Positions 1,963 to 8,337 of a DNA stretch of 47,971 nt are shown here, in pieces (position 1 is the stretch's first letter; the number at the start of each line of letters is the position of its first letter). The translations under genes and the position numbers were made by a program. This DNA comes from a virus (Duplodnaviria; Heunggongvirae; Uroviricota; Caudoviricetes), in IMG/VR virus record IMGVR_UViG_2623620505_000002. One strand, 5' to 3'. Below the pieces are notes generated by a model. The model searched no databases and was not told the origin of the DNA. It saw only the letters and a list, made by a program, of their open reading frames with translations.

Positions 1963-4434
1963 TTAAAAATCAGCCTGACTCGGGATCAGTTTTTGCCAGA
2001 TAGCTGAAACGTATTTTGCCTGGTAACGGGCGTCATCAAGTGCATTATGGCGCTCACCTTCGAATGGAATAGCCGTTCTGGCATCGAAGTCTATGGCTTT
2101 CCCCAGCTCAACGATTGTGCGTACATCGCGATCGTTGTAGTAACGCCACGGGCAGGGGATCCCCTGCCGTTCGTATGAACGGCGCAAAATCGTGTTGTCG
2201 AAGTTGGCTCCATTTCCCCAGACCTGAACAAAAAATTCACCGGAGTTTTCGTCGATAAATTCCCGCAATTGTAGCAGTGCATCATCTAACGGGATTTCAT
2301 CGGTCATAATGGCAGATTGCGCTTCGCGTGATTGCTTAAGCCACCATTTAATGGTGTCCCGATCAATGACTCCGCCAGCAGTTTCCAGATCGATAGTCTT
2401 ACTAAATTCCGGTCCCATATCTCCGGTTTGCGGATCGAAAAATATTGCACCTATTGAGATAATCGGGGCATCAGGATTTTTTCCCATGGTTTCAAGGTCG
2501 ATCATTAGATGGTCACACGTCCTGCTGGTGGATGTGATAACGCGATGACCGTTCACCGTAATTAAGGGATCTGCCGTCTCGCCAGTTTCACTATCGCTGG
2601 CGTGATCCTGAGCGCTGCCAGCATTCTCCTTGTGTGGATGTTCAGCGCCTTCCATTTTCTCCGAATCGTCTTCCTGAACTTCAACCTGGTTCTTGTCATC
2701 GAATGTTTCCTGGTATGTTGCGTCGCCCATCACTGCACCACAATCAGGGCAGTTGCCGCCACCGCTTTGACCGCAGGCGGTGCAGATCTTTTCCGGTTCC
2801 TGTTGCACTACTGGTTCAGGTTGTTTCGTTTCTGGCTCGTTTTGTTGCGTATTTGGGCTGTTTTGTTCCGCTTTCTGGTCGTTCTGTTCCGTTTCTTGCT
2901 GGTTCTGGTTCACAGAATCGCGGGTTTCAATCCCCTTCACCCATTTCGGATCATTCGGATCGCTAATCCCTGCAACAAATTCACCACGTGATACTGCAAG
3001 CAGTTCATCGGCGTCAGGCTGGCTGATATTGGCTGCCTGCATAATTTTGTTTACTTCGTCAGCGGTAACTTTTACCGGCCCTGGTTGTGCGGTCGTGTCA
3101 GATGCACCAGTATTTTGTTGTGAACCTGAGTATGTACCGTTTTTGCGGGCGAAATATTCTTCTTTCGTGATTTCAGTAGCCCCGGCAGCCAGTGCCTTAT
3201 CCAGACCAGAAAGTTTGTTTGCGCGACCGTATTTTTCGCCATCCTTGTCGGTGAAGAGGAAGTAGAACGGCCCCTCACGCTCTACAGATGGTTCGACTTC
3301 CACTTTGCATTCGGTTTTTTCGTTGTTCGGCATTGCCGTTTCCACTGCATCAGCTTCTGGTACTGGCGACGGGAGAGTATTAGTTGTGCTCTGATTTCTT
3401 CCTTCATCTTCAAACACGCCCTTTGTAGTCAGGTATTCAGTGATGTATTTGTTCAGCGCCACAGGATCTTTGTGAATGTCGATCGGACGCTCACGGACAA
3501 GGCCAAAAATAGTCTGACGGTCGTAGCGAACGGCATCGGGTTGTTTGCGCATTGATGCGGAAATGCGCTTCCAGTCTTCGCGATCTTTGTCGATAACTTC
3601 ATTTTTTGCCCAGCGATGGATGCTGCCGTCAATGTTTCCGGCATTAATATCGCCAGGCCACAGAGCGTAGGCCAGTTCTTCATCCAGCGTTTTCCATGTC
3701 TGCTTGTATTCGCGACGAATGGCGGCAGTGGCGGGGTTGATTTTTCCTGCTGAGTTTTCAGTGTGCTGCCGGTTGACTCTGGCGCGGGCAAGATCAACAA
3801 CAGACGTGTATTTCCCGGTTTCTTTGCGTTCACCTTCGCGACGTTTTTTCCAGATGCGCATCTCTGCCTGAATTTCGGGCCATTTGGCACCAGGCTTACA
3901 TTTATGCTTAACCCACCCGATGGCATGCAGCTTAAGCTCCGGATACATGGCGTTAACTTCTGGCATTTTCATCAACGCTTCAACGATATGTCCGTCGAAT
4001 GTTGCCATGTCTTCCTGCAACAATTCCTGCGCGCTAATCACCATATCAACGGTGATGTTTTCACATGTGTCGAACTTAACCATGACAGCGTTCTGTACTT
4101 CAGGGGCCAGCTTGTCAAAAGTGACGCTCATCGGATCTGATTCAGTCTCAACCGGGACAAAGGAAGCAGACTCCTCATCCCAGCGGTTTTCCTGCATATA
4201 TTCAGCATCCCAGGAATCGAGGGCAGGGCGGGGTATACCGGGTTTATCCTCGCAAACAAGAAATTTATAAGCGCAGTCCTGAGCAGCCGGATAATGTTCC
4301 AGGAATTGCCAGTGAAATTTTGCGCGGGCGCGACGTTCATCACCGGCTTCAATGGCAGTGGCTACAGCGACTGCACCTTCTTCCTTTATTGCCTGTTCGT
4401 CCGGAATGGCGGCGCAAATAAAGACTTTACTCAT
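1963..4434 (-). CDS. Large phage exonuclease (RecE/exodeoxyribonuclease VIII-like annotation class) with a C-terminal DEDDh 3'-5' exonuclease fold and an internal CxxC...CxxC zinc ribbon
   Basis: 823 aa; C-terminus carries DLETMG (Exo I) and HNALDDA (Exo III) motifs; CTACGQSGGGNCPDCG zinc-ribbon-like motif mid-protein; early-left position next to xis. Confidence 0.7.
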   Translation of the reverse strand: MSKVFICAAIPDEQAIKEEGAVAVATAIEAGDERRARAKFHWQFLEHYPAAQDCAYKFLVCEDKPGIPRPALDSWDAEYMQENRWDEESASFVPVETESDPMSVTFDKLAPEVQNAVMVKFDTCENITVDMVISAQELLQEDMATFDGHIVEALMKMPEVNAMYPELKLHAIGWVKHKCKPGAKWPEIQAEMRIWKKRREGERKETGKYTSVVDLARARVNRQHTENSAGKINPATAAIRREYKQTWKTLDEELAYALWPGDINAGNIDGSIHRWAKNEVIDKDREDWKRISASMRKQPDAVRYDRQTIFGLVRERPIDIHKDPVALNKYITEYLTTKGVFEDEGRNQSTTNTLPSPVPEADAVETAMPNNEKTECKVEVEPSVEREGPFYFLFTDKDGEKYGRANKLSGLDKALAAGATEITKEEYFARKNGTYSGSQQNTGASDTTAQPGPVKVTADEVNKIMQAANISQPDADELLAVSRGEFVAGISDPNDPKWVKGIETRDSVNQNQQETEQNDQKAEQNSPNTQQNEPETKQPEPVVQQEPEKICTACGQSGGGNCPDCGAVMGDATYQETFDDKNQVEVQEDDSEKMEGAEHPHKENAGSAQDHASDSETGETADPLITVNGHRVITSTSRTCDHLMIDLETMGKNPDAPIISIGAIFFDPQTGDMGPEFSKTIDLETAGGVIDRDTIKWWLKQSREAQSAIMTDEIPLDDALLQLREFIDENSGEFFVQVWGNGANFDNTILRRSYERQGIPCPWRYYNDRDVRTIVELGKAIDFDARTAIPFEGERHNALDDARYQAKYVSAIWQKLIPSQADF

Positions 4435-4526
4435 TTTGTTTTACCTCATTACAGATTTAAGGGTGAACAAATCCCTGCCATTGCTGGCATATAAGAATGA
4501 AATCGGATGTTTATTACGGAACTGTT

Positions 4527-4718
4527 TTAAAGACCTGCCGGGATTTCGTTATTGTCCATGCGAATAACTTTATCAACCGGATAACAGTTGCCGGGAATTT
4601 TCTGTTCCGCTGCGGCAGCCATGCATTCTTTCATTGAGTCATGTATACCAATAACAAGATCGACTGGTTCGCCTGTATTAAGAAAAACTGTCAGAACGAG
4701 TGCAAATGCTGTATTCAT
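4527..4718 (-). CDS. DUF1482-family small phage protein (YdaE-like)
   Basis: 63-aa product MNTAFALVLTVFLNTGEPVDLVIGIHDSMKECMAAAAEQKIPGNCYPVDKVIRMDNNEIPAGL from the internal Met of the 81-aa track ORF; family recalled from lambdoid prophages. Confidence 0.55.
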   Translation of the reverse strand: MNTAFALVLTVFLNTGEPVDLVIGIHDSMKECMAAAAEQKIPGNCYPVDKVIRMDNNEIPAGL

Positions 4719-4720
4719 TG

Positions 4721-4903
4721 TCAGCGTCCTTTTTGCATCAGGCGTAAACGGGCCAGCATTGAAACAATGCATATTTGATTTAATAGCTCCCGTTCGTGTT
4801 TTCTCTTATTAATGGCATCTTCAGTAAATACAGGGTTACTGATTCTGACACCAATTTCAAAACAACCTTCAGACGTATTAACGTTTGGTAATAACGTTTC
4901 CAT
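4721..4903 (-). CDS. Small early protein at the kil position (KilR-like candidate)
   Basis: 60-aa ORF whose stop sits 3 nt before the DUF1482 start; position matches kilR in Rac-type early-left operons; identity not verified. Confidence 0.4.
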   Translation of the reverse strand: METLLPNVNTSEGCFEIGVRISNPVFTEDAINKRKHERELLNQICIVSMLARLRLMQKGR

Positions 4904-5090
4904 TATCGCGTCCTCAACAATGAATTTTGTGATGCGGTGCCTGGTGCCTCCAGGTGACGTTAACCAGTTAACAATTAACGCCGGATACAGGGAAACCCAT
5001 AAACACCCGATACGGGGGAACTAATCGCTTTTTAACTGTTCCGCGTGCGCTTAGCCGCATTCACCGCATCACAAAATTCACTTTAAAAAG

Positions 5091-5128
5091 GGCGGACATC
5101 AGCCAGCAATTAAACTGATGCCGCCAAA
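5091..5128 (-). terminator. Candidate Rho-independent terminator for a leftward transcript inside a 0.7-kb region with no long ORF
   Basis: On the minus strand GGCGGCATCAG ... CTGATGTCCGCC hairpin followed by TTTTTAAA. Confidence 0.4.
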
Positions 5129-5447
5129 GGTCTCACACAAGCCTCAACATGGAGATGTTGTGGCGGGGTTGTCACTCAGGCGTATGGTCAACCTGACAAC
5201 CCGGTGCTACCAGTGGGGGTAAGGATAACCCCGCCATACTTACCGCCGCGCCATTTCGCGGAGTGCCACAACCGGAAGCGCACGGTCGAAGATACCGGCG
5301 ACACGCAACAGAGGGAGAAATGACTTCGCCGTGCGCTTTCGTGTTGTGTGCCTGCTTTTAACCACGTCAGGCGAGGTGGTTCCTGTCATTCCCCAACGAC
5401 AAGAAATCTGTATAATCTGGATATCCCCAACGATCCAAGGAAATCAT

Positions 5448-5594
5448 ATGACAGAGCAAAGAGCACAAGCAGGTGGTGGCAATTCGACACATAAAACAGT
5501 CTGGGATCACATACCAGAGAAAAACATTCGACCAAAACCATCTCCAGCTCCTTCGGAGGAGAGGGGGAACAGCAACAACCAAACAAGCAGGTGA
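5448..5594 (+). CDS. Candidate 48-aa ORF upstream of the SieB-like gene
   Basis: ATG at 5448 with AAGGAA RBS; perfect TATAAT at 5411-5416 upstream; may instead be a 5' leader. Confidence 0.25.
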   Translation: MTEQRAQAGGGNSTHKTVWDHIPEKNIRPKPSPAPSEERGNSNNQTSR

Positions 5595-5600
5595 TGATGT

Positions 5601-6047
5601 ATGGACCGGGATGATATTCTTGACAGAATTTTATATGGCTATTTTCTTGAGCAACTATTTTCTGTAGCGACTGGTCGTCTCGATAAACTTCTCTCAGTGG
5701 TGAGTATTATCCTCGGTTCATCTGTCATTGGCGGATTCATTCCGGAAATTTCTGGCGTTTTTATTGTTGTGATCGCAACCGTCCAAACGATTTATGGATT
5801 CGGACAAAAGTCAGGTAACGCCATGAGAAAATCCGCAGAATATTTGCAGCTTTTTGATGATGCAGAAAAATATTCTGATTCTGAATTGAAAATGCAGTTA
5901 AAAATTCTGGAAAAAACGGATGATCATATTTGGTCATCACTTAAAGATATTGCGATCTTAAAAACACAGATCAAAATAGGCGTTTCCATCGAACAACAAG
6001 AGAAGCTGCCCACAAAATCTAAATTGATGCGATTTCTTTGTGGTTAG
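5601..6047 (+). CDS. Two-helix membrane protein in the sieB position (superinfection-exclusion candidate)
   Basis: 148 aa; two adjacent hydrophobic helices (VVSIILGSSVIGGFIPEI, GVFIVVIATVQTIYGF) after a ~30-aa N-terminus; AT-rich; oriented opposite to the leftward early operon, as sieB is in Rac-type prophages. Confidence 0.5.
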   Translation: MDRDDILDRILYGYFLEQLFSVATGRLDKLLSVVSIILGSSVIGGFIPEISGVFIVVIATVQTIYGFGQKSGNAMRKSAEYLQLFDDAEKYSDSELKMQLKILEKTDDHIWSSLKDIAILKTQIKIGVSIEQQEKLPTKSKLMRFLCG

Positions 6048-6125
6048 GAATATCCAGAATGTTAAAGAGCATGCCGGAGATTTATCCGTGTCCGGCGCAT
6101 GTTCTCCACCTCACCCGTGGAGAAC

Positions 6126-6512
6126 TTAATGATTAATTGATATTTTATAGTTGGCTTCAACTTTCCCATCTGAAGTGGGATGCTTTAAATCACAGGAATT
6201 AATGTTGCACTCAGTAAAATGGTTTTTAAGGGGTTCTATTCGAATCCCTTTCTTTTCCATCAACAAACCAAACCCCTTGTTAATGATATCCATTAATTCC
6301 AGGAAGTATTTTTCAGAGGAATCATGCTTATCAGAGTGCTGCTTCTCTTCGTACAACCCGATAAAGGCACGGCGCACGTTACCGGATATATTATCTATGG
6401 TTTCTTTTTCTACGGTACTCAGGTCAAGAGTCGCCAATTGAGAACGAACTATATTCGCTGCCATTTCCTGGAAAGGTGTTGGTAAATCTTTAAATTCCAT
6501 CGTTAACCTCAT
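6126..6512 (-). CDS. Hypothetical protein, translationally coupled to the upstream small gene
   Basis: 128-aa ORF; start codon shares one base with the upstream stop (TGATG on the minus strand); no recognisable motif. Confidence 0.5.
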   Translation of the reverse strand: MRLTMEFKDLPTPFQEMAANIVRSQLATLDLSTVEKETIDNISGNVRRAFIGLYEEKQHSDKHDSSEKYFLELMDIINKGFGLLMEKKGIRIEPLKNHFTECNINSCDLKHPTSDGKVEANYKISINH

Positions 6513-6664
6513 CAGTCAGTATTTCTGGATAACCAGCGACGCGCGCTAGCTTCGGTTTTAAACGTTTTGCTTTTGGTATACGTCATCGCGGTGAACGTAC
6601 CGTCCTGGTTGGGAAACACGCCACATACCAGAGATTCGCTGTTGCCAAGATCGATAGTATCCAT
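6512..6664 (-). CDS. Small protein downstream of the repressor, YdfA/YdaF-like (DUF1391 class); longest ORF would start at 6742
   Basis: 50-aa product from the internal Met (MDTIDLGNSESLVCGVFPNQDGTFTAMTYTKSKTFKTEASARRWLSRNTD); size and position match the small genes that follow dicA/racR-type repressors; family name from memory. Confidence 0.45.
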   Translation of the reverse strand: MDTIDLGNSESLVCGVFPNQDGTFTAMTYTKSKTFKTEASARRWLSRNTD

Positions 6665-6835
6665 GTTGACCTCATTTCCCCTTAACGCCGGGGTAGCGGA
6701 ACAAAAACCTGCTGCATAGTTAAAGTTGAACCCTGCCGTCATGTTCTTACGCCTCGGGCTGGCTACTTAACCCCTGATCACTGCCTGGTAACTCGAAGTA
6801 TTGCCCGGCGTTCTGTGGGGCGGGGTGGGTTGGTA

Positions 6836-6849
6836 TGTTGTTAAGGTAA
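6836..6849. promoter_or_regulatory. GTAAC-N4-GTTAC palindrome (operator-like) between the cI terminator and the next leftward gene
   Basis: Perfect inverted repeat GGTAACaagaGTTACC; same half-sites as the two palindromes in the cI-cro intergenic region. Confidence 0.35.
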
Positions 6850-6902
6850 CAAGAGTTACCATCTGAGTCAATACAATGTTGCAAAAGGTACGTTTGAGGG
6901 CA

Positions 6903-6927
6903 TAAAAAACCCGCAATGAATGCGGGT
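6903..6927 (-). terminator. Rho-independent terminator just downstream of the repressor gene
   Basis: On the minus strand ACCCGCA ttcat TGCGGGT followed by TTTTTT, 7 nt after the cI stop codon. Confidence 0.6.
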
Positions 6928-6933
6928 TCTGAC

Positions 6934-7608
6934 TCAATCTAAGTATTGATGTATTTGTGAAACTTTACCTTTAATGGTGTAACCGCCATTCAGTTCGATG
7001 GGTTTGTAAAGCGGATTCAGTGACAACAGATAGATGTTTGGTCCGTCAATCGCAACTTTTTTTAGTGTTACGTTTGGCGTTCCTTCCAATTGGATTAAGA
7101 TTATTTTCCCCACCAGTTCTCTAATGTTACTTGAGCATGGTGTGATCAGCACGGTAGATCCGTCGGGGATGGTTGGGAGGCCGTTAGAGTTTGTCATCGC
7201 ATCTCCCTCAACATGCAATAAAAAAGAGTTTTCAGCGGTTTTTGTCATGACATCAACCCAATTCTTAATACCAGGAATCTCGGTTACTGGGCAACTCATA
7301 TCCCAATAACCAGCCTGTTCCCACGTTAAAACGGGCAACCGGGCGATGTTGTCACTAATGTAAAGGTACTGATTCAGACGCAGATCATCGGTTTTATCGT
7401 GACCGTCCTTTCCATAAAGAATCCATTCAGGAGATTTGGAAAGCAATTTTGACAGTAGATGTAAATTCTCACCGTCAGGTTTTGAAGAGCCATTTTCCCA
7501 TTTTGTTACGGATACACGAGATATGCCGATTGCTTTCGCAACCTGCTGTTGGGTTAATCCAACGTCTTTTCGACGATTCCGAATACGTTCGCTGATAGTG
7601 TTTTTCAT
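6934..7608 (-). CDS. cI: CI-type prophage repressor (N-terminal XRE helix-turn-helix, C-terminal LexA/S24 peptidase-like domain); alternative upstream starts at 7650 and 7707
   Basis: HTH segment LTQQQVAKAIGISRVSVTKWENG; C-terminal S24-like domain with HVEGDAM serine motif and downstream KK; divergent from cro; start at 7608 chosen because operator palindromes lie directly upstream. Confidence 0.8.
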   Translation of the reverse strand: MKNTISERIRNRRKDVGLTQQQVAKAIGISRVSVTKWENGSSKPDGENLHLLSKLLSKSPEWILYGKDGHDKTDDLRLNQYLYISDNIARLPVLTWEQAGYWDMSCPVTEIPGIKNWVDVMTKTAENSFLLHVEGDAMTNSNGLPTIPDGSTVLITPCSSNIRELVGKIILIQLEGTPNVTLKKVAIDGPNIYLLSLNPLYKPIELNGGYTIKGKVSQIHQYLD

Positions 7609-7670
7609 GTAACCAATGTTACCACCAAGTGATGTTACTATGGTTGACATTGCTATGTAACTATTGTTAC
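7609..7670. promoter_or_regulatory. Immunity-region operator/promoter segment with two GTAAC-N4-GTTAC palindromes (PRM/PR candidates)
   Basis: GTAACCAATGTTAC at 7609-7622 and GTAACTATTGTTAC at 7657-7670; TTGACA at 7644-7649; lies between divergent cI and cro. Confidence 0.45.
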
Positions 7671-7699
7671 CCTCCTGCTCGAAATAACAGGAGAGTTTT

Positions 7700-7915
7700 A
7701 TGTTCAAAGATGATGTTCTGCGCTATTTCAAAAAAAAACGACTAGTAGCTGAGGCTCTTGGAATTTCACATGTGGCTGTTGTGCGGTGGAAAGCAGTTAT
7801 TCCCAAACTTCGCGCAATGGAGCTGGATGAAATTACTAACGGTGAATTGAAATACAACCCAGAACTTTACAAGAAGCAGGATAGCACCTCGAACGAAGGA
7901 AAGAATGATTCATGA
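7700..7915 (+). CDS. cro: Cro-like DNA-binding regulator
   Basis: 71 aa, divergent from cI; HTH-like segment RLVAEALGISHVAVVRW; AGGAGAG RBS. Confidence 0.7.
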   Translation: MFKDDVLRYFKKKRLVAEALGISHVAVVRWKAVIPKLRAMELDEITNGELKYNPELYKKQDSTSNEGKNDS

Positions 7916-8337
7916 AAATCAAGCATGAACACATCCGCATGGCGATGAATGCCTGGGCGCATCCAGACGGCGAGAAAGTACCGGCTGCGAAAATTACCAA
8001 AGCGTATTTCGAACTGGGAATGACGTTCCCGGAACTGTATGACGACAGCCATCCGGAAGCCCTGGCTCGCAATACCCAGAAAATTTTCCGCTGGGTAGAG
8101 AAAGACACTCCTGATGCGGTTAAAAAAATTCAGGCGTTGTTACCGGCTATCGAAAAAGCAATGCCACCTCTGCTGGTGGCCCGAATGCGCAGCCACAGTT
8201 CAGCCTGGTTTCGGGAGCTGGTGGAGACGCGGGAACGACTGGTGAGAGACGCTGATGATTTTGTCGCAGTGGCGATCGCTGGTTTCAATCAGATGAATCG
8301 TGGCGGCCCAGCGGGAAATGCCGTGGTCGCGCATTGA
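7912..8337 (+). CDS. YdaT-like protein (cII-position regulator)
   Basis: 141 aa starting MKIKHEH; ATGA start/stop overlap with cro; position matches ydaT in Rac-type prophages; identity from memory. Confidence 0.55.
   Translation: MKIKHEHIRMAMNAWAHPDGEKVPAAKITKAYFELGMTFPELYDDSHPEALARNTQKIFRWVEKDTPDAVKKIQALLPAIEKAMPPLLVARMRSHSSAWFRELVETRERLVRDADDFVAVAIAGFNQMNRGGPAGNAVVAH

What the first reader, a model, noticed from the sequence alone, without database searches (positions are those of the whole stretch)
4904..5447. About 0.5 kb of GC-rich, hairpin-dense non-coding DNA in the early-left region with a leftward terminator
No ORF of 60 aa or more lies between the KilR-like gene and the SieB-like gene, which is unusual for a compact phage genome. 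The stretch contains several strong inverted repeats (5091-5125, 5166-5202, 5215-5235) and a minus-strand terminator. A 49-codon arginine-rich ORF (about 5388..5239, minus strand) could be an N-like RNA-binding peptide. The region could equally encode a small RNA or nut-like sites.
Basis: seen in the sequence. Interest (0 to 1): 0.45.

Follow-up and report, generated by a model that had tools for sequence, protein, structure and literature searches.

The report
Unannotated DicF small-RNA locus upstream of dicB
The 0.5 kb "empty" stretch is the well-known leader of a prophage dicB cell-division-inhibitor operon: it carries a rare, unannotated version of the DicF small RNA with its terminator and the hairpins that host RNases cut to release it, so it is mostly ordinary.

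Summary
Window 4904-5447 is non-coding, GC-rich in its centre and hairpin-dense, and it has a minus-strand intrinsic terminator.

The "KilR-like" gene is DicB (Pfam E=1.5e-37). The stretch is homologous to the ydfC-dicF-dicB spacer of E. coli K-12 prophage Qin. Read on the minus strand it contains:
- a long hairpin matching the published RNase III site (5348-5267);
- a conserved 116-nt four-way-junction domain (5272-5157);
- a DicF-like sRNA ending in the terminator (5139-5085; Rfam DicF 45.4 bits, just under the cut-off of 48, so RefSeq leaves it unannotated);
- a structured spacer closed by a 20-bp helix (5081-5062 with 4939-4920) in front of the dicB ribosome-binding site.

The DicF allele has a different 5' seed and loop. 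It is present at ≥99% identity in only 9 of 5,426 complete E. coli genomes, and it lacks the anti-Shine-Dalgarno CUCC in the part of K-12 DicF that pairs with ftsZ.

The arginine-rich ORF is not coding: it is intact in 5 of 65 homologues. The right end (5360-5431) is the promoter-like flank of a reverse-oriented cargo-gene slot. No nut-like site lies in the range, but a perfect rrn-type BoxA sits upstream at 6071-6060 on the operon's sense strand.

The parts
4721..4903 (-). dicB (60 aa), the cell-division inhibitor gene served by this leader.
   Evidence: Pfam DicB E=1.5e-37. NCBIfam CellDivInhibDicB 126.5 bits against a cut-off of 100. RefSeq annotates it as dicB in an identical genome.
4911..4915 (-). 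dicB Shine-Dalgarno GAGGA, 7 nt upstream of the ATG at 4903. In the predicted fold of the read-through RNA it pairs with the 3' side of the DicF terminator.
   Evidence: Read directly from the sequence; MFE structure. The sequestration is an inference.
4871..5092 (-). Structured dicF-dicB spacer, a sub-threshold relative of Rfam STnc100.
   Evidence: Rfam RF02076 36 bits, E=2.5e-5, cut-off 47. The K-12 spacer scores the same way, 34.4 bits. Fold z=-5.66. Identity among 68 homologues is 94-99% at 4904-5000.
4920..4939 (-). 3' arm of the 20-bp long-range helix that closes the spacer.
   Evidence: 19-nt perfect inverted repeat found by self-BLAST. All 20 pairs are kept in 94-100% of 69 sequences, and changes are G-C to G-U only.
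5062..5081 (-). 5' arm of the same helix. By homology it holds the RNase III cut that gives the published 72-nt DicF 3' end.
   Evidence: K-12 position dicF+72 falls inside this arm, and the 72-nt RNase III product is described in PMC5069750.
5085..5139 (-). DicF-like sRNA, a divergent allele. It has a 14-nt single-stranded 5' seed UGUGUGAGACCUUU (5139-5126), a terminator hairpin (5125-5091) and a U-run (5089-5085).
   Evidence: Rfam DicF 45.4 bits, E=7.4e-8, full model 1-52. Terminator scan. Hairpin -21 kcal/mol, z=-3.6. It aligns with K-12 dicF and with the annotated DicF of phage Tritos. The exact 5' end has not been mapped.
5157..5272 (-). Conserved 'pre-DicF' domain, predicted to be a four-way junction. 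The closing helix is GUUGUGGC (5272-5265) with GCCACAAC (5164-5157). Inside are hairpins CCGCG/CGCGG, CGGU..GGGG/CCCC..ACCG and GGUUGUCAGG/CCU..UGACAACC. It corresponds to the 5' part of the published 190-nt DicF species.
   Evidence: Blocks are 92-96% identical among 68 homologues. RNAalifold consensus. 97.8% of cells are paired against 35-63% when partners are shifted, and 6 pairs change on both sides against 1-3 in shifted controls. Homologues occur in phages P1 and P7, cdtI, 2H10 and Stx2c phages. No Rfam family matches.
5267..5348 (-). Long imperfect hairpin (H1; 26 paired positions in the fold, with bulges and an internal branch) with a variable apex, inferred to be the RNase III substrate. 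The homologue of the K-12 190-nt-species 5' end falls at about 5278 in its 3' arm.
   Evidence: Fold -40.5 kcal/mol, z=-3.8. Inverted repeats I4 and I9. K-12 mapping together with the RNase III dependence of the 190-nt species. Stem pairs are kept, with G-C to G-U and A-U changes.
5240..5389 (-). The 49-codon arginine-rich ORF. It is judged not to be a gene; it overlaps H1 and the domain.
   Evidence: Intact in 5 of 65 homologues; no codon-position bias; indels that are not multiples of 3. No family match.
5360..5431 (+). Conserved promoter-like flank of a rightward cargo-gene slot. It has TATAAT at 5411-5416, bracketed by direct repeats TCCCCAACGA (5390-5399 and 5424-5433).
   Evidence: Repeat family D4. 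The same flank, with TATAAT and both repeats, precedes an unrelated cargo gene in L014, L016 and L060. The -35 is weak and the consensus scan calls no promoter, so promoter function is inferred.
5601..6047 (+). It is inserted antisense in the operon between the ydfC-side hairpins and H1.
   Evidence: phrog_6315 E=1.4e-23, function unknown. Weak PADLOC RTasSLATT hit, E=0.002. No Pfam, NCBIfam or PDB match. Insertion boundaries.
6060..6071 (-). Context: rrn-type BoxA TGCTCTTTAACA on the operon's sense strand, just after a hairpin (6096-6073).
   Evidence: The only match in the window. It fits the functional consensus GYTCTTTAANA of PMC5725501. It is present in all 15 cargo-bearing loci and in none of 48 loci without cargo, and it varies only at the two degenerate positions.

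Best explanation
Window 4904-5447 is the untranslated leader of dicB in the leftward, repressor-controlled early operon of a lambdoid prophage. This is the dicBF-operon module known from E. coli K-12 prophage Qin, and it is read on the minus strand.

Proposed course of events:
1. Transcription starts about 1.6 kb upstream, next to the cI-like repressor gene (inferred), and enters the region at 5447.
2. RNase III cuts the long hairpin 5348-5267, at about 5278. This releases a precursor of about 190 nt whose 5' part folds into a conserved four-way-junction domain (5272-5157).
3. RNase E then cuts in the single-stranded stretch after that domain. This gives an sRNA of about 55 nt (5139-5085) whose 3' end is made by its own intrinsic terminator.
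4. Polymerases that read through continue into a structured spacer closed by a 20-bp helix (5081-5062 with 4939-4920). This helix is a second RNase III site. It separates DicF from the dicB mRNA and probably frees the dicB ribosome-binding site.

Steps 2-4 are shown experimentally only for the K-12 homologue. Here they are inferred from conserved sequence and structure.

The sRNA is a divergent DicF allele with a new 5' seed, a more stable hairpin and a different loop. It probably acts as an Hfq-type base-pairing regulator, but its targets are unknown and may not include ftsZ.

The right-hand 90 nt (5360-5447) do not belong to the leader's RNA function. They are the promoter side of a reverse-oriented cargo gene inserted into the operon.
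For: Identity of the locus:
- DicB lies immediately downstream.
- The alignment with K-12 Qin and phage Tritos runs from about 5345 to dicB, with dicF in register.
- Rfam gives DicF E=7.4e-8 and STnc100 E=2.5e-5 in the same order as in K-12.
- The module 5359-4721 recurs in 4,735 of 5,426 complete E. coli genomes and in the fetched DicB loci that hold enough upstream sequence; all but about four of 68 distinct upstream sequences align through DicF.

Processing:
- Published work shows DicF is cut out of the polycistronic transcript. RNase III makes the 5' end of the 190-nt form and RNase E that of the 53-nt form (bioRxiv 10.1101/2023.04.14.536235).
- The 3' ends come from the terminator (53 nt) or from RNase III (72 nt) (PMC5069750).
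- Transferring those lengths to the alignment puts the 190-nt end inside the 3' arm of H1 and the 72-nt end inside the 5' arm of the 20-bp helix.

Structure:
- Fold z-scores run from -3.6 to -5.7.
- The helices are conserved, while the hairpin apices and the DicF seed and loop form the variable islands.

Cargo flank.
Against: - There are no expression or end-mapping data for this allele.
- The DicF covariance-model score (45.4) is below Rfam's gathering score (48).
- The allele lacks the CUCC anti-Shine-Dalgarno found in the 3' part of K-12 DicF, the part shown to be needed for ftsZ repression. In co-folding it keeps its hairpin closed. Its predicted ftsZ interaction (ddG -6.3) is no better than that of shuffles, but neither is that of the validated K-12 pair, so this test has little power.
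- Covariation support is thin. Only 3 of 55 pairs show compensatory changes in the lambdoid set, because the sequences are close relatives.
- The promoter near 6871-6843 was picked by eye; the consensus scan found none.
- About 700 nt of antisense cargo now lie between the upstream genes and the leader, so the amount of transcription reaching dicF is uncertain.
Confidence: 0.88

Rival explanations
1. The conserved structured RNA upstream of the terminator (5348-5157) is a cis-acting antiterminator, analogous in role to the HK022 put RNAs. It would let RNA polymerase read through the DicF terminator into dicB, exonuclease VIII, xis and int. DicF processing would be secondary.
For: - The domain is more conserved than DicF itself.
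- In three phage groups it sits just upstream of an intrinsic terminator that lies in front of further early genes: lambdoid dicBF operons, cdtI/2H10/Stx2c phages shortly after the putative pL, and the P1/P7 ban operon directly after the C1-controlled promoter.
- No N-like protein is evident in the operon.
- A host-type BoxA is present upstream.
Against: - It was not compared with put sequences and has no Rfam match.
- In K-12, no transcript extending beyond dicF was detected, and the domain is known as part of a stable 190-nt processing product.
- Nothing here tests terminator read-through.
Confidence: 0.08
2. The DicF-like element here is only an intrinsic terminator or attenuator of the early-left operon. 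The allele no longer acts as a trans-acting sRNA: it is a decayed DicF.
For: - The score is below the Rfam gathering threshold.
- The seed and loop differ from the K-12 allele, and the CUCC anti-Shine-Dalgarno of the ftsZ-pairing part is absent.
- The allele is rare, at ≥99% identity in 9 of 5,426 genomes.
Against: - The hairpin is intact and even stronger, with compensatory stem changes, and it keeps a U-run and a single-stranded 5' arm typical of Hfq sRNAs.
- All flanking processing elements are conserved.
- Seed-swapped alleles are the rule in this family: at least six seed/hairpin combinations were seen.
Confidence: 0.12
3. The 49-codon arginine-rich ORF (5389-5240, minus strand) encodes an N-like RNA-binding antiterminator peptide.
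For: The ORF exists and is rich in Arg and Lys. It lies in an early-left operon.
Against: - It is intact in 5 of 65 homologous leaders, all near-identical to the window. Elsewhere it has no start codon, or has stops or frameshifts.
- Substitutions are even over codon positions (386/369/425), and length varies by 1-2 nt.
- The start region lies outside the conserved block.
- It has no family match.
- It overlaps conserved RNA helices.
Confidence: 0.02
4. The stretch is a decaying remnant of former genes with no function.
For: It contains no annotated genes. The K-12 homologue sits in a cryptic prophage.
Against: - The core is conserved at 84-100% identity in most E. coli genomes and in intact phages.
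- Conservation is patterned by RNA structure, with conserved stems and variable apices.
- Folding is much stronger than in shuffles.
- The K-12 homologue is experimentally functional.
Confidence: 0.02

Closest known systems
dicF / dicBF operon of E. coli K-12 cryptic prophage Qin (Rfam RF00039 DicF)
   Same: - The same position in a repressor-controlled leftward operon, about 185 nt upstream of dicB (K-12: 175 nt).
- Homologous flanks from the RNase III hairpin to dicB, 86% identity over 5292-4727.
- The same architecture: single-stranded 5' arm, terminator hairpin and U-run.
- The same sub-threshold STnc100-like spacer.
   Different: - The 5' seed is UGUGUGAGACCUUU (K-12: UUUCUGGUGACGUUU).
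- The loop is UUUAAUUGCUGG, without the CUCC anti-Shine-Dalgarno.
- The hairpin is more stable, -21 against -15.9 kcal/mol.
- The covariance-model score is 45.4 against 76.7 bits.
- ydfB and ydfC are replaced, and a reverse-oriented cargo gene plus a BoxA are inserted upstream.
- The repressor here has a LexA-type S24 peptidase domain. K-12 DicA is reported not to be RecA-cleavable.
Other DicF-like alleles in lambdoid prophages and phages (Tritos, mEp460-type, PPompW/Stx2a phages; the multiple dicF copies of EHEC)
   Same: They are members of one mosaic family that shares the pre-DicF domain and the dicB spacer. The hairpin of the window allele is nearly the same as that of the 'GAUUACCUUUUGGCGGCAUCAG...' group.
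   Different: The window's seed was seen in only 4 of 69 distinct upstream sequences sampled (the window among them) and in 9 genomes. Its closest relatives (L075-L078, 99% identical over 6200-4727) carry GAUUUGUACCUUU instead.
Rfam RF02076 STnc100 / PasD prophage sRNAs
   Same: The dicF-dicB spacer matches the full STnc100 model (positions 1-206), including its long closing helix. STnc100 is described as prophage-associated (bioRxiv 10.64898/2026.05.13.724894).
   Different: The score is 36 bits against a gathering score of 47. Here the element is an internal operon spacer ending at the dicB start, not a free-standing sRNA gene. No terminator of its own was identified.
'dicF-like region' in the ban-operon leader of phages P1 and P7
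   Same: It shares the core of the pre-DicF domain (about 77% identity over about 98 nt), with compensatory changes in two helices. This is followed by a short single-stranded stretch and an intrinsic terminator.
   Different: It lies directly after the C1-controlled Pban promoter, with no RNase III hairpin, no dicB, a different terminator hairpin and no clear closing helix.
3'ETS-type sRNAs (for example 3'ETS-leuZ), released by RNase E downstream of a folded tRNA and ended by the operon terminator. This comparison is from my own knowledge and was not tested.
   Same: The logic is the same: a compact multi-helix domain, then an RNase E cut, then a short sRNA ending at an intrinsic terminator.
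   Different: The domain is not a tRNA (ARAGORN found none; only chance-level Rfam hits).

Membership tests
DicF sRNA (Rfam RF00039) | Covariance-model score at or above the curated gathering score (48 bits) | tested here: not met
   45.4 bits, E=7.4e-8, full-length match to model positions 1-52. K-12 scores 76.7 and Tritos 72.5. Other accepted-context alleles score 34-39 or are missed altogether. The threshold therefore under-calls this mosaic family.
DicF sRNA (Rfam RF00039) | Location in the untranslated spacer of a dicB operon, upstream of dicB, with homologous flanks | tested here: met
   dicB starts 186 nt after the hairpin. The alignment with K-12 and Tritos is in register.
DicF sRNA (Rfam RF00039) | 3' end formed by a Rho-independent terminator; about 53 nt with a single-stranded 5' arm | tested here: met
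   Terminator scan hit. Fold: 14 nt single-stranded, a 13-bp hairpin with one bulge and a U5 run, -21 kcal/mol. The ends have not been mapped experimentally.
DicF sRNA (Rfam RF00039) | Release from the polycistronic transcript by RNase III (190-nt and 72-nt forms) and RNase E (53-nt form) | not testable with these tools
   Only the substrates can be checked. Both long helices that contain the K-12 cut positions are conserved.
DicF sRNA (Rfam RF00039) | Antisense pairing of the 3' part with the ftsZ ribosome-binding site (division inhibition) | tested here: inconclusive
   The CUCC anti-Shine-Dalgarno of the K-12 loop is absent. The longest complementary run to ftsZ -45..+21 is 6 nt. The co-fold ddG of -6.3 is no better than that of shuffles, but the validated K-12 pair also fails that control.
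STnc100 (Rfam RF02076) | Covariance-model score at or above the gathering score (47 bits) | tested here: not met
   36 bits, E=2.5e-5. The K-12 dicF-dicB spacer scores 34.4 bits. It is a distant relative at best.
Lambda-type N / nut antitermination | A conserved small arginine-rich protein encoded early in the operon | tested here: not met
   The candidate ORF is not conserved as a reading frame. The upstream proteins are DUF1391 and phrog_6937, neither arginine-rich.
Lambda-type N / nut antitermination | A BoxA followed by a BoxB hairpin within the region | tested here: not met
   No BoxA (YGCTCTTWA or GYTCTTTAANA) lies in 4904-5447. The single BoxA of the window is at 6071-6060(-) and follows a hairpin rather than preceding one, which is the rrn-like order.
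rrn-type BoxA / Nus-factor site (considered for 6060-6071 only) | A match to the functional consensus GYTCTTTAANA on the transcribed strand, conserved among relatives | tested here: met
   A perfect 12-nt rrn BoxA (14 nt in L022 and L060). Every occurrence in about 300 kb of related loci is at this site and on the sense strand. Variation is confined to the Y and N positions. Binding of NusB/NusE and the effect on Rho were not tested.
tRNA / tRNA-like element (considered for the 5272-5157 domain) | Detection by a tRNA search or a tRNA-clan covariance model | tested here: not met
   ARAGORN found no gene. The only tRNA-like Rfam hit is mascRNA at 15.3 bits, E=1.3, which is chance level.

The most novel reading that the evidence does not exclude
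The 116-nt four-way-junction domain (5272-5157) may be an autonomous, portable RNA module, conserved from lambdoid prophages to P1 and P7. In this reading phages place it in front of interchangeable 'seed plus terminator' cassettes. It would either dictate where RNase E releases the sRNA or let polymerase pass the terminator. Together with the host-type BoxA at 6071-6060, it would form an N-independent way to carry early transcription through more than 1 kb of untranslated RNA (antisense cargo plus sRNA leader). The window's DicF allele, with its new seed, would then be a re-targeted regulator rather than an ftsZ inhibitor.
Probability: 0.25. Interest if true: 0.6.

Novelty: new member of a known kind. 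Interest (0 to 1): 0.3.

Why it matters
For annotation: this is a real sRNA locus that the standard pipeline misses, because the allele falls 2.6 bits under the Rfam cut-off. The neighbouring genes should be named dicB and 'unknown two-TM cargo protein', not kilR and sieB.

For biology: DicF-family sRNAs affect host division, metabolism and, in EHEC, virulence. This locus shows that the family evolves by swapping the seed and loop while the processing scaffold is kept almost invariant. A lysogen carrying this allele may therefore regulate different host genes.

Two by-products deserve more attention than the original finding:
- The scaffold domain is more conserved than DicF, is shared with P1, and is absent from Rfam.
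- A consensus BoxA accompanies a reverse-oriented cargo slot.

Neither changes the verdict that the 0.5-kb stretch itself is an already understood kind of element.

Tried and rejected
- N-like peptide: rejected on reading-frame conservation.
- tRNA or tmRNA in the domain: none found. A focused Rfam scan of 5135-5365 gave only chance-level hits, including C4 antisense RNA at E=3.7 and mascRNA at E=1.3.
- ftsZ targeting: RNAduplex and co-fold energies were compared with shuffles for the window allele, K-12 and other alleles. The tests have no discriminating power, because even the validated K-12 pair is not better than shuffles. Only the qualitative loss of the CUCC anti-Shine-Dalgarno is reported.
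- Phage-internal target of the seed: the reverse complement of the seed occurs nowhere else in the window.
- Second copy of the leader in the window: none.
- Sigma-70 promoter scan of 4400-8000: no site reached the tool's threshold. The promoters named in this report are eyeballed candidates.
- Genome-contig scan with DicB: only 7 loci, all Escherichia or Shigella except one probably mis-binned MAG, so it gave little extra diversity.
- Literature: the Faubladier and Bouché 1994 paper (PMC205167) is not held. Searches for 'dicF-like' and for early dicF papers gave nothing usable.
- HK022 put comparison: the HK022 region was fetched, but put is not annotated there and no comparison was made.
- The alternative long pairing GGCGGGGUUAUC (5236-5224) with GACAACCCCGCC (5173-5161) chosen by the single-sequence MFE: rejected. 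Natural GGGG-to-GAGG variants are compensated inside the local hairpin, not in the distal strand.
Full report
**What is there**

The stretch 4904-5447 lies between a 60-codon minus-strand gene (4721-4903) and a plus-strand 148-codon gene (5601-6047).
- A RefSeq genome that is 100% identical over window 4700-5700 annotates nothing between them.
- GC rises to 0.58-0.60 at 5100-5400, against about 0.38-0.46 around it.
- The minus-strand RNA folds far better than shuffled sequence: z=-4.06 for 5085-5350 and z=-5.66 for 4895-5095, with 0 of 200 shuffles as stable.

The observation therefore stands. The neighbours, however, were misnamed.
- The left gene is DicB (Pfam E=1.5e-37; NCBIfam above its cut-off).
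- The right gene has no SieB or any other Pfam or NCBIfam match.

**Identity**

An Rfam scan places DicF at 5139-5090(-) with 45.4 bits and E=7.4e-8. It places STnc100 at 5092-4871(-) with 36 bits and E=2.5e-5.

The order of genes on the minus strand is the dicBF-operon layout of K-12 prophage Qin and of phage Tritos, where DicF is annotated:
1. cI-like repressor;
2. a DUF1391 (YdfA-like) gene;
3. a small gene;
4. the non-coding stretch;
5. dicB;
6. a DUF1482 gene;
7. exonuclease VIII, xis and int.

A three-way alignment is in register from about window 5345 to dicB. A 1-kb query around the region hits 4,735 of 5,426 complete E. coli genomes. A gap of this size is normal for the module: K-12 has 567 nt between ydfC and dicB.

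**Anatomy and mechanism**

For K-12, published work shows the following.
- DicF is cut out of the polycistronic transcript. RNase III makes the 5' end of a 190-nt form and RNase E that of the 53-nt form (bioRxiv 10.1101/2023.04.14.536235).
- The 3' end is made by the intrinsic terminator, or by RNase III 19 nt further on, which gives the 72-nt form (PMC5069750).

I transferred these lengths through the alignment.
- The 190-nt end falls in the 3' arm of a long hairpin (window 5348-5267, -40.5 kcal/mol), at about 5278.
- The 72-nt end falls in the 5' arm of a 20-bp long-range helix (5081-5062 with 4939-4920).
  - It encloses the STnc100-like spacer and ends just before the dicB Shine-Dalgarno (4915-4911).
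  - In the predicted read-through fold, that Shine-Dalgarno pairs with the 3' side of the DicF terminator. I infer that cleavage at the helix helps dicB translation.

These steps are shown for K-12. For this window they are inferred from conservation.

**Conservation pattern**

I fetched 87 DicB loci, which gave 68 distinct upstream sequences.
- Identity to the window is 84-99% through 5345-4904.
- Four islands are variable: the apex of the RNase III hairpin (5320-5281), a hairpin apex at 5220-5201, the DicF seed and loop (5160-5101), and an internal part of the spacer (5040-5001).

Helix-forming segments are nearly invariant, or change G-C to G-U or A-U. Compensatory changes are few within the lambdoid set, 3 of 55 pairs, because the sequences are close relatives.

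**The DicF allele**

DicF occurs in several mosaic versions that combine different 5' arms and hairpins. The window's version is UGUGUGAGACCUUU followed by GGCGGCAUCAG-UUUAAUUGCUGG-CUGAUGUCCGCC and a U5 run.
- It was seen in 4 of the 69 distinct sequences compared (the 68 homologues plus the window itself).
- It occurs at ≥99% identity in 9 of 5,426 genomes, with nothing annotated under most of the matches listed.
- Its hairpin is stronger than that of K-12 (-21 against -15.9 kcal/mol).
- Its loop lacks the CUCC anti-Shine-Dalgarno found in the 3' part of K-12 DicF. That part is the one shown by mutation to be needed for ftsZ repression.

Energy-based tests of ftsZ pairing were uninformative, because even the validated K-12 pair is not better than shuffles. 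I file it as a DicF-family member by homology and architecture. It misses the Rfam cut-off by 2.6 bits, and its targets are unknown.

**The arginine-rich ORF**

The ORF 5389-5240(-) is not a gene.
- The frame is intact in only 5 of 65 homologous leaders.
- The start codon lies outside the conserved block.
- Lengths differ by 1-2 nt.
- Substitutions are even across codon positions (386/369/425).

**The right end of the range**

Homology to K-12 stops at about 5345-5360 and resumes at 6072-6126. That second block holds the two hairpins that follow ydfC in K-12. The 754 nt measured from the second of those hairpins (CCGGACAC, about 6094) to H1 are an insertion carrying the reverse-oriented 148-aa gene; without the insertion that distance is 71-73 nt.

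The segment 5360-5431 contains TATAAT (5411-5416) bracketed by direct repeats TCCCCAACGA. It is shared with loci that carry an unrelated cargo gene, a coiled-coil protein with CxxC motifs, in the same slot. This part of the 'non-coding DNA' is therefore the promoter-side flank of a variable cargo slot. Promoter function is inferred only, because the -35 is weak and the consensus scan is silent.

The 48-codon ORF 5448-5594 is not conserved. A 118-bp segment bounded by 14-bp direct repeats is absent in L022.

**Beyond the range**

(a) *The pre-DicF domain.* The domain 5272-5157 is predicted to close into a four-way junction.
- The closing helix pairs GUUGUGGC (5272-5265) with GCCACAAC (5164-5157).
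- The 5' strand of that helix is also part of the RNase III hairpin, so the two pairings are mutually exclusive.

More distant copies exist.
- One lies shortly after the putative pL promoter in phages cdtI, 2H10 and Stx2c-converting phages.
- Another is the 'dicF-like region' of the P1/P7 ban-operon leader.
- Each is followed by a different short seed and an intrinsic terminator.

With these copies included, 97.8% of cells pair, against 35-63% for shifted partners, and six pairs change on both sides. No Rfam family covers the domain. Its role is open: processing scaffold, stabiliser of the 190-nt form, or antiterminator.

(b) *The BoxA.* A perfect rrn-type BoxA (TGCTCTTTAACA) lies at 6071-6060 on the operon's sense strand, just after a hairpin.
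- It fits the functional consensus GYTCTTTAANA (PMC5725501).
- It is found in all 15 cargo-bearing loci and in none of 48 loci without cargo.
- It varies only at the two degenerate positions.

BoxA/Nus complexes protect long untranslated transcripts such as rRNA and CRISPR arrays from Rho (PMC7665894, listed; that claim is from its abstract and my own knowledge). I therefore suggest that this BoxA shields the early transcript across the antisense cargo and the DicF leader. This is untested.

**Verdict**

The finding is a real feature of an already known kind: the dicF locus and dicB leader. It carries a rare, unannotated DicF allele.
- Its 'N-like peptide' option is wrong.
- Its 'nut-like' option is wrong for these coordinates, but a BoxA about 620 nt upstream echoes the idea.

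Noticed in passing
window 6060-6071 (minus strand), with the hairpin 6073-6096: A perfect rrn-type BoxA (TGCTCTTTAACA) lies on the sense strand of the leftward early operon. It is present in all 15 related loci that carry a reverse-oriented cargo gene and in none of 48 that do not, and it varies only at the degenerate positions of the consensus GYTCTTTAANA. It may protect the transcript from Rho across about 1.2 kb of untranslated RNA.
   Followed up: partly
window 5360-6126; loci L014, L016, L022, L060, L004: This is a variable cargo slot inside the dicBF operon. It has conserved flanks: a promoter-like TATAAT at 5411-5416 between TCCCCAACGA repeats, and hairpins plus BoxA at 6043-6126. The reverse-oriented genes in it are unrelated. 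One is the 148-aa two-TM protein (phrog_6315; weak PADLOC RTasSLATT hit, E=0.002). Another is a 143-162-aa coiled-coil protein with CxxC motifs. E. ruysiae has a third arrangement. It looks like a moron or defence hotspot.
   Followed up: partly
L092 (phage P1, NC_005856 68739-68892), L096 (P7), L093-L095 (Stx2c phage, cdtI, 2H10): The core of the pre-DicF domain is conserved outside dicB operons. In P1 and P7 it lies directly after the C1-controlled ban promoter and before tRNA genes. In cdtI-type phages it lies about 300 nt after a putative pL. Each copy is followed by its own seed and intrinsic terminator. The domain has no Rfam family.
   Followed up: partly
window 5465-5596: A 118-bp segment bounded by 14-bp direct repeats (ACAAGCAGGTGGTG and ACAAGCAGGTGATG) is absent from L022, L026 and L029. 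It creates or removes the 48-codon ORF 5448-5594, which is therefore unlikely to be a gene.
   Followed up: yes
loci L011, L054, L075 and others (DicF hairpin loop), compared with window 5103-5114: The commoner alleles that share this hairpin have the loop AGUUUCAUUG. It is complementary over 10 nt to ftsZ codons 4-7 (CAAUGGAACU). The window allele has A instead of C in the middle of it. This may be chance: about 0.2 such runs are expected.
   Followed up: no
window 6934-7707 (minus strand): The repressor next to the operon has an HTH domain plus a LexA-type S24 peptidase domain. K-12 DicA is reported not to be RecA-cleavable. The dicBF module here is therefore probably SOS-inducible. A 16-bp palindrome GGTAACTCTTGTTACC (6860-6845) sits between TTGACT (6871-6866) and a weak -10.
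   Followed up: no
MT713136 (Aeromonas phage AP1), PP818812 (Actinobacillus phage vB_Apl-pPE4), L008 (a 'Veillonella parvula' MAG): Records attributed to non-enterobacterial hosts contain this E. coli-type dicF/dicB sequence at 84-92% identity. The likely causes are contamination or mis-binning rather than true host range.
   Followed up: no
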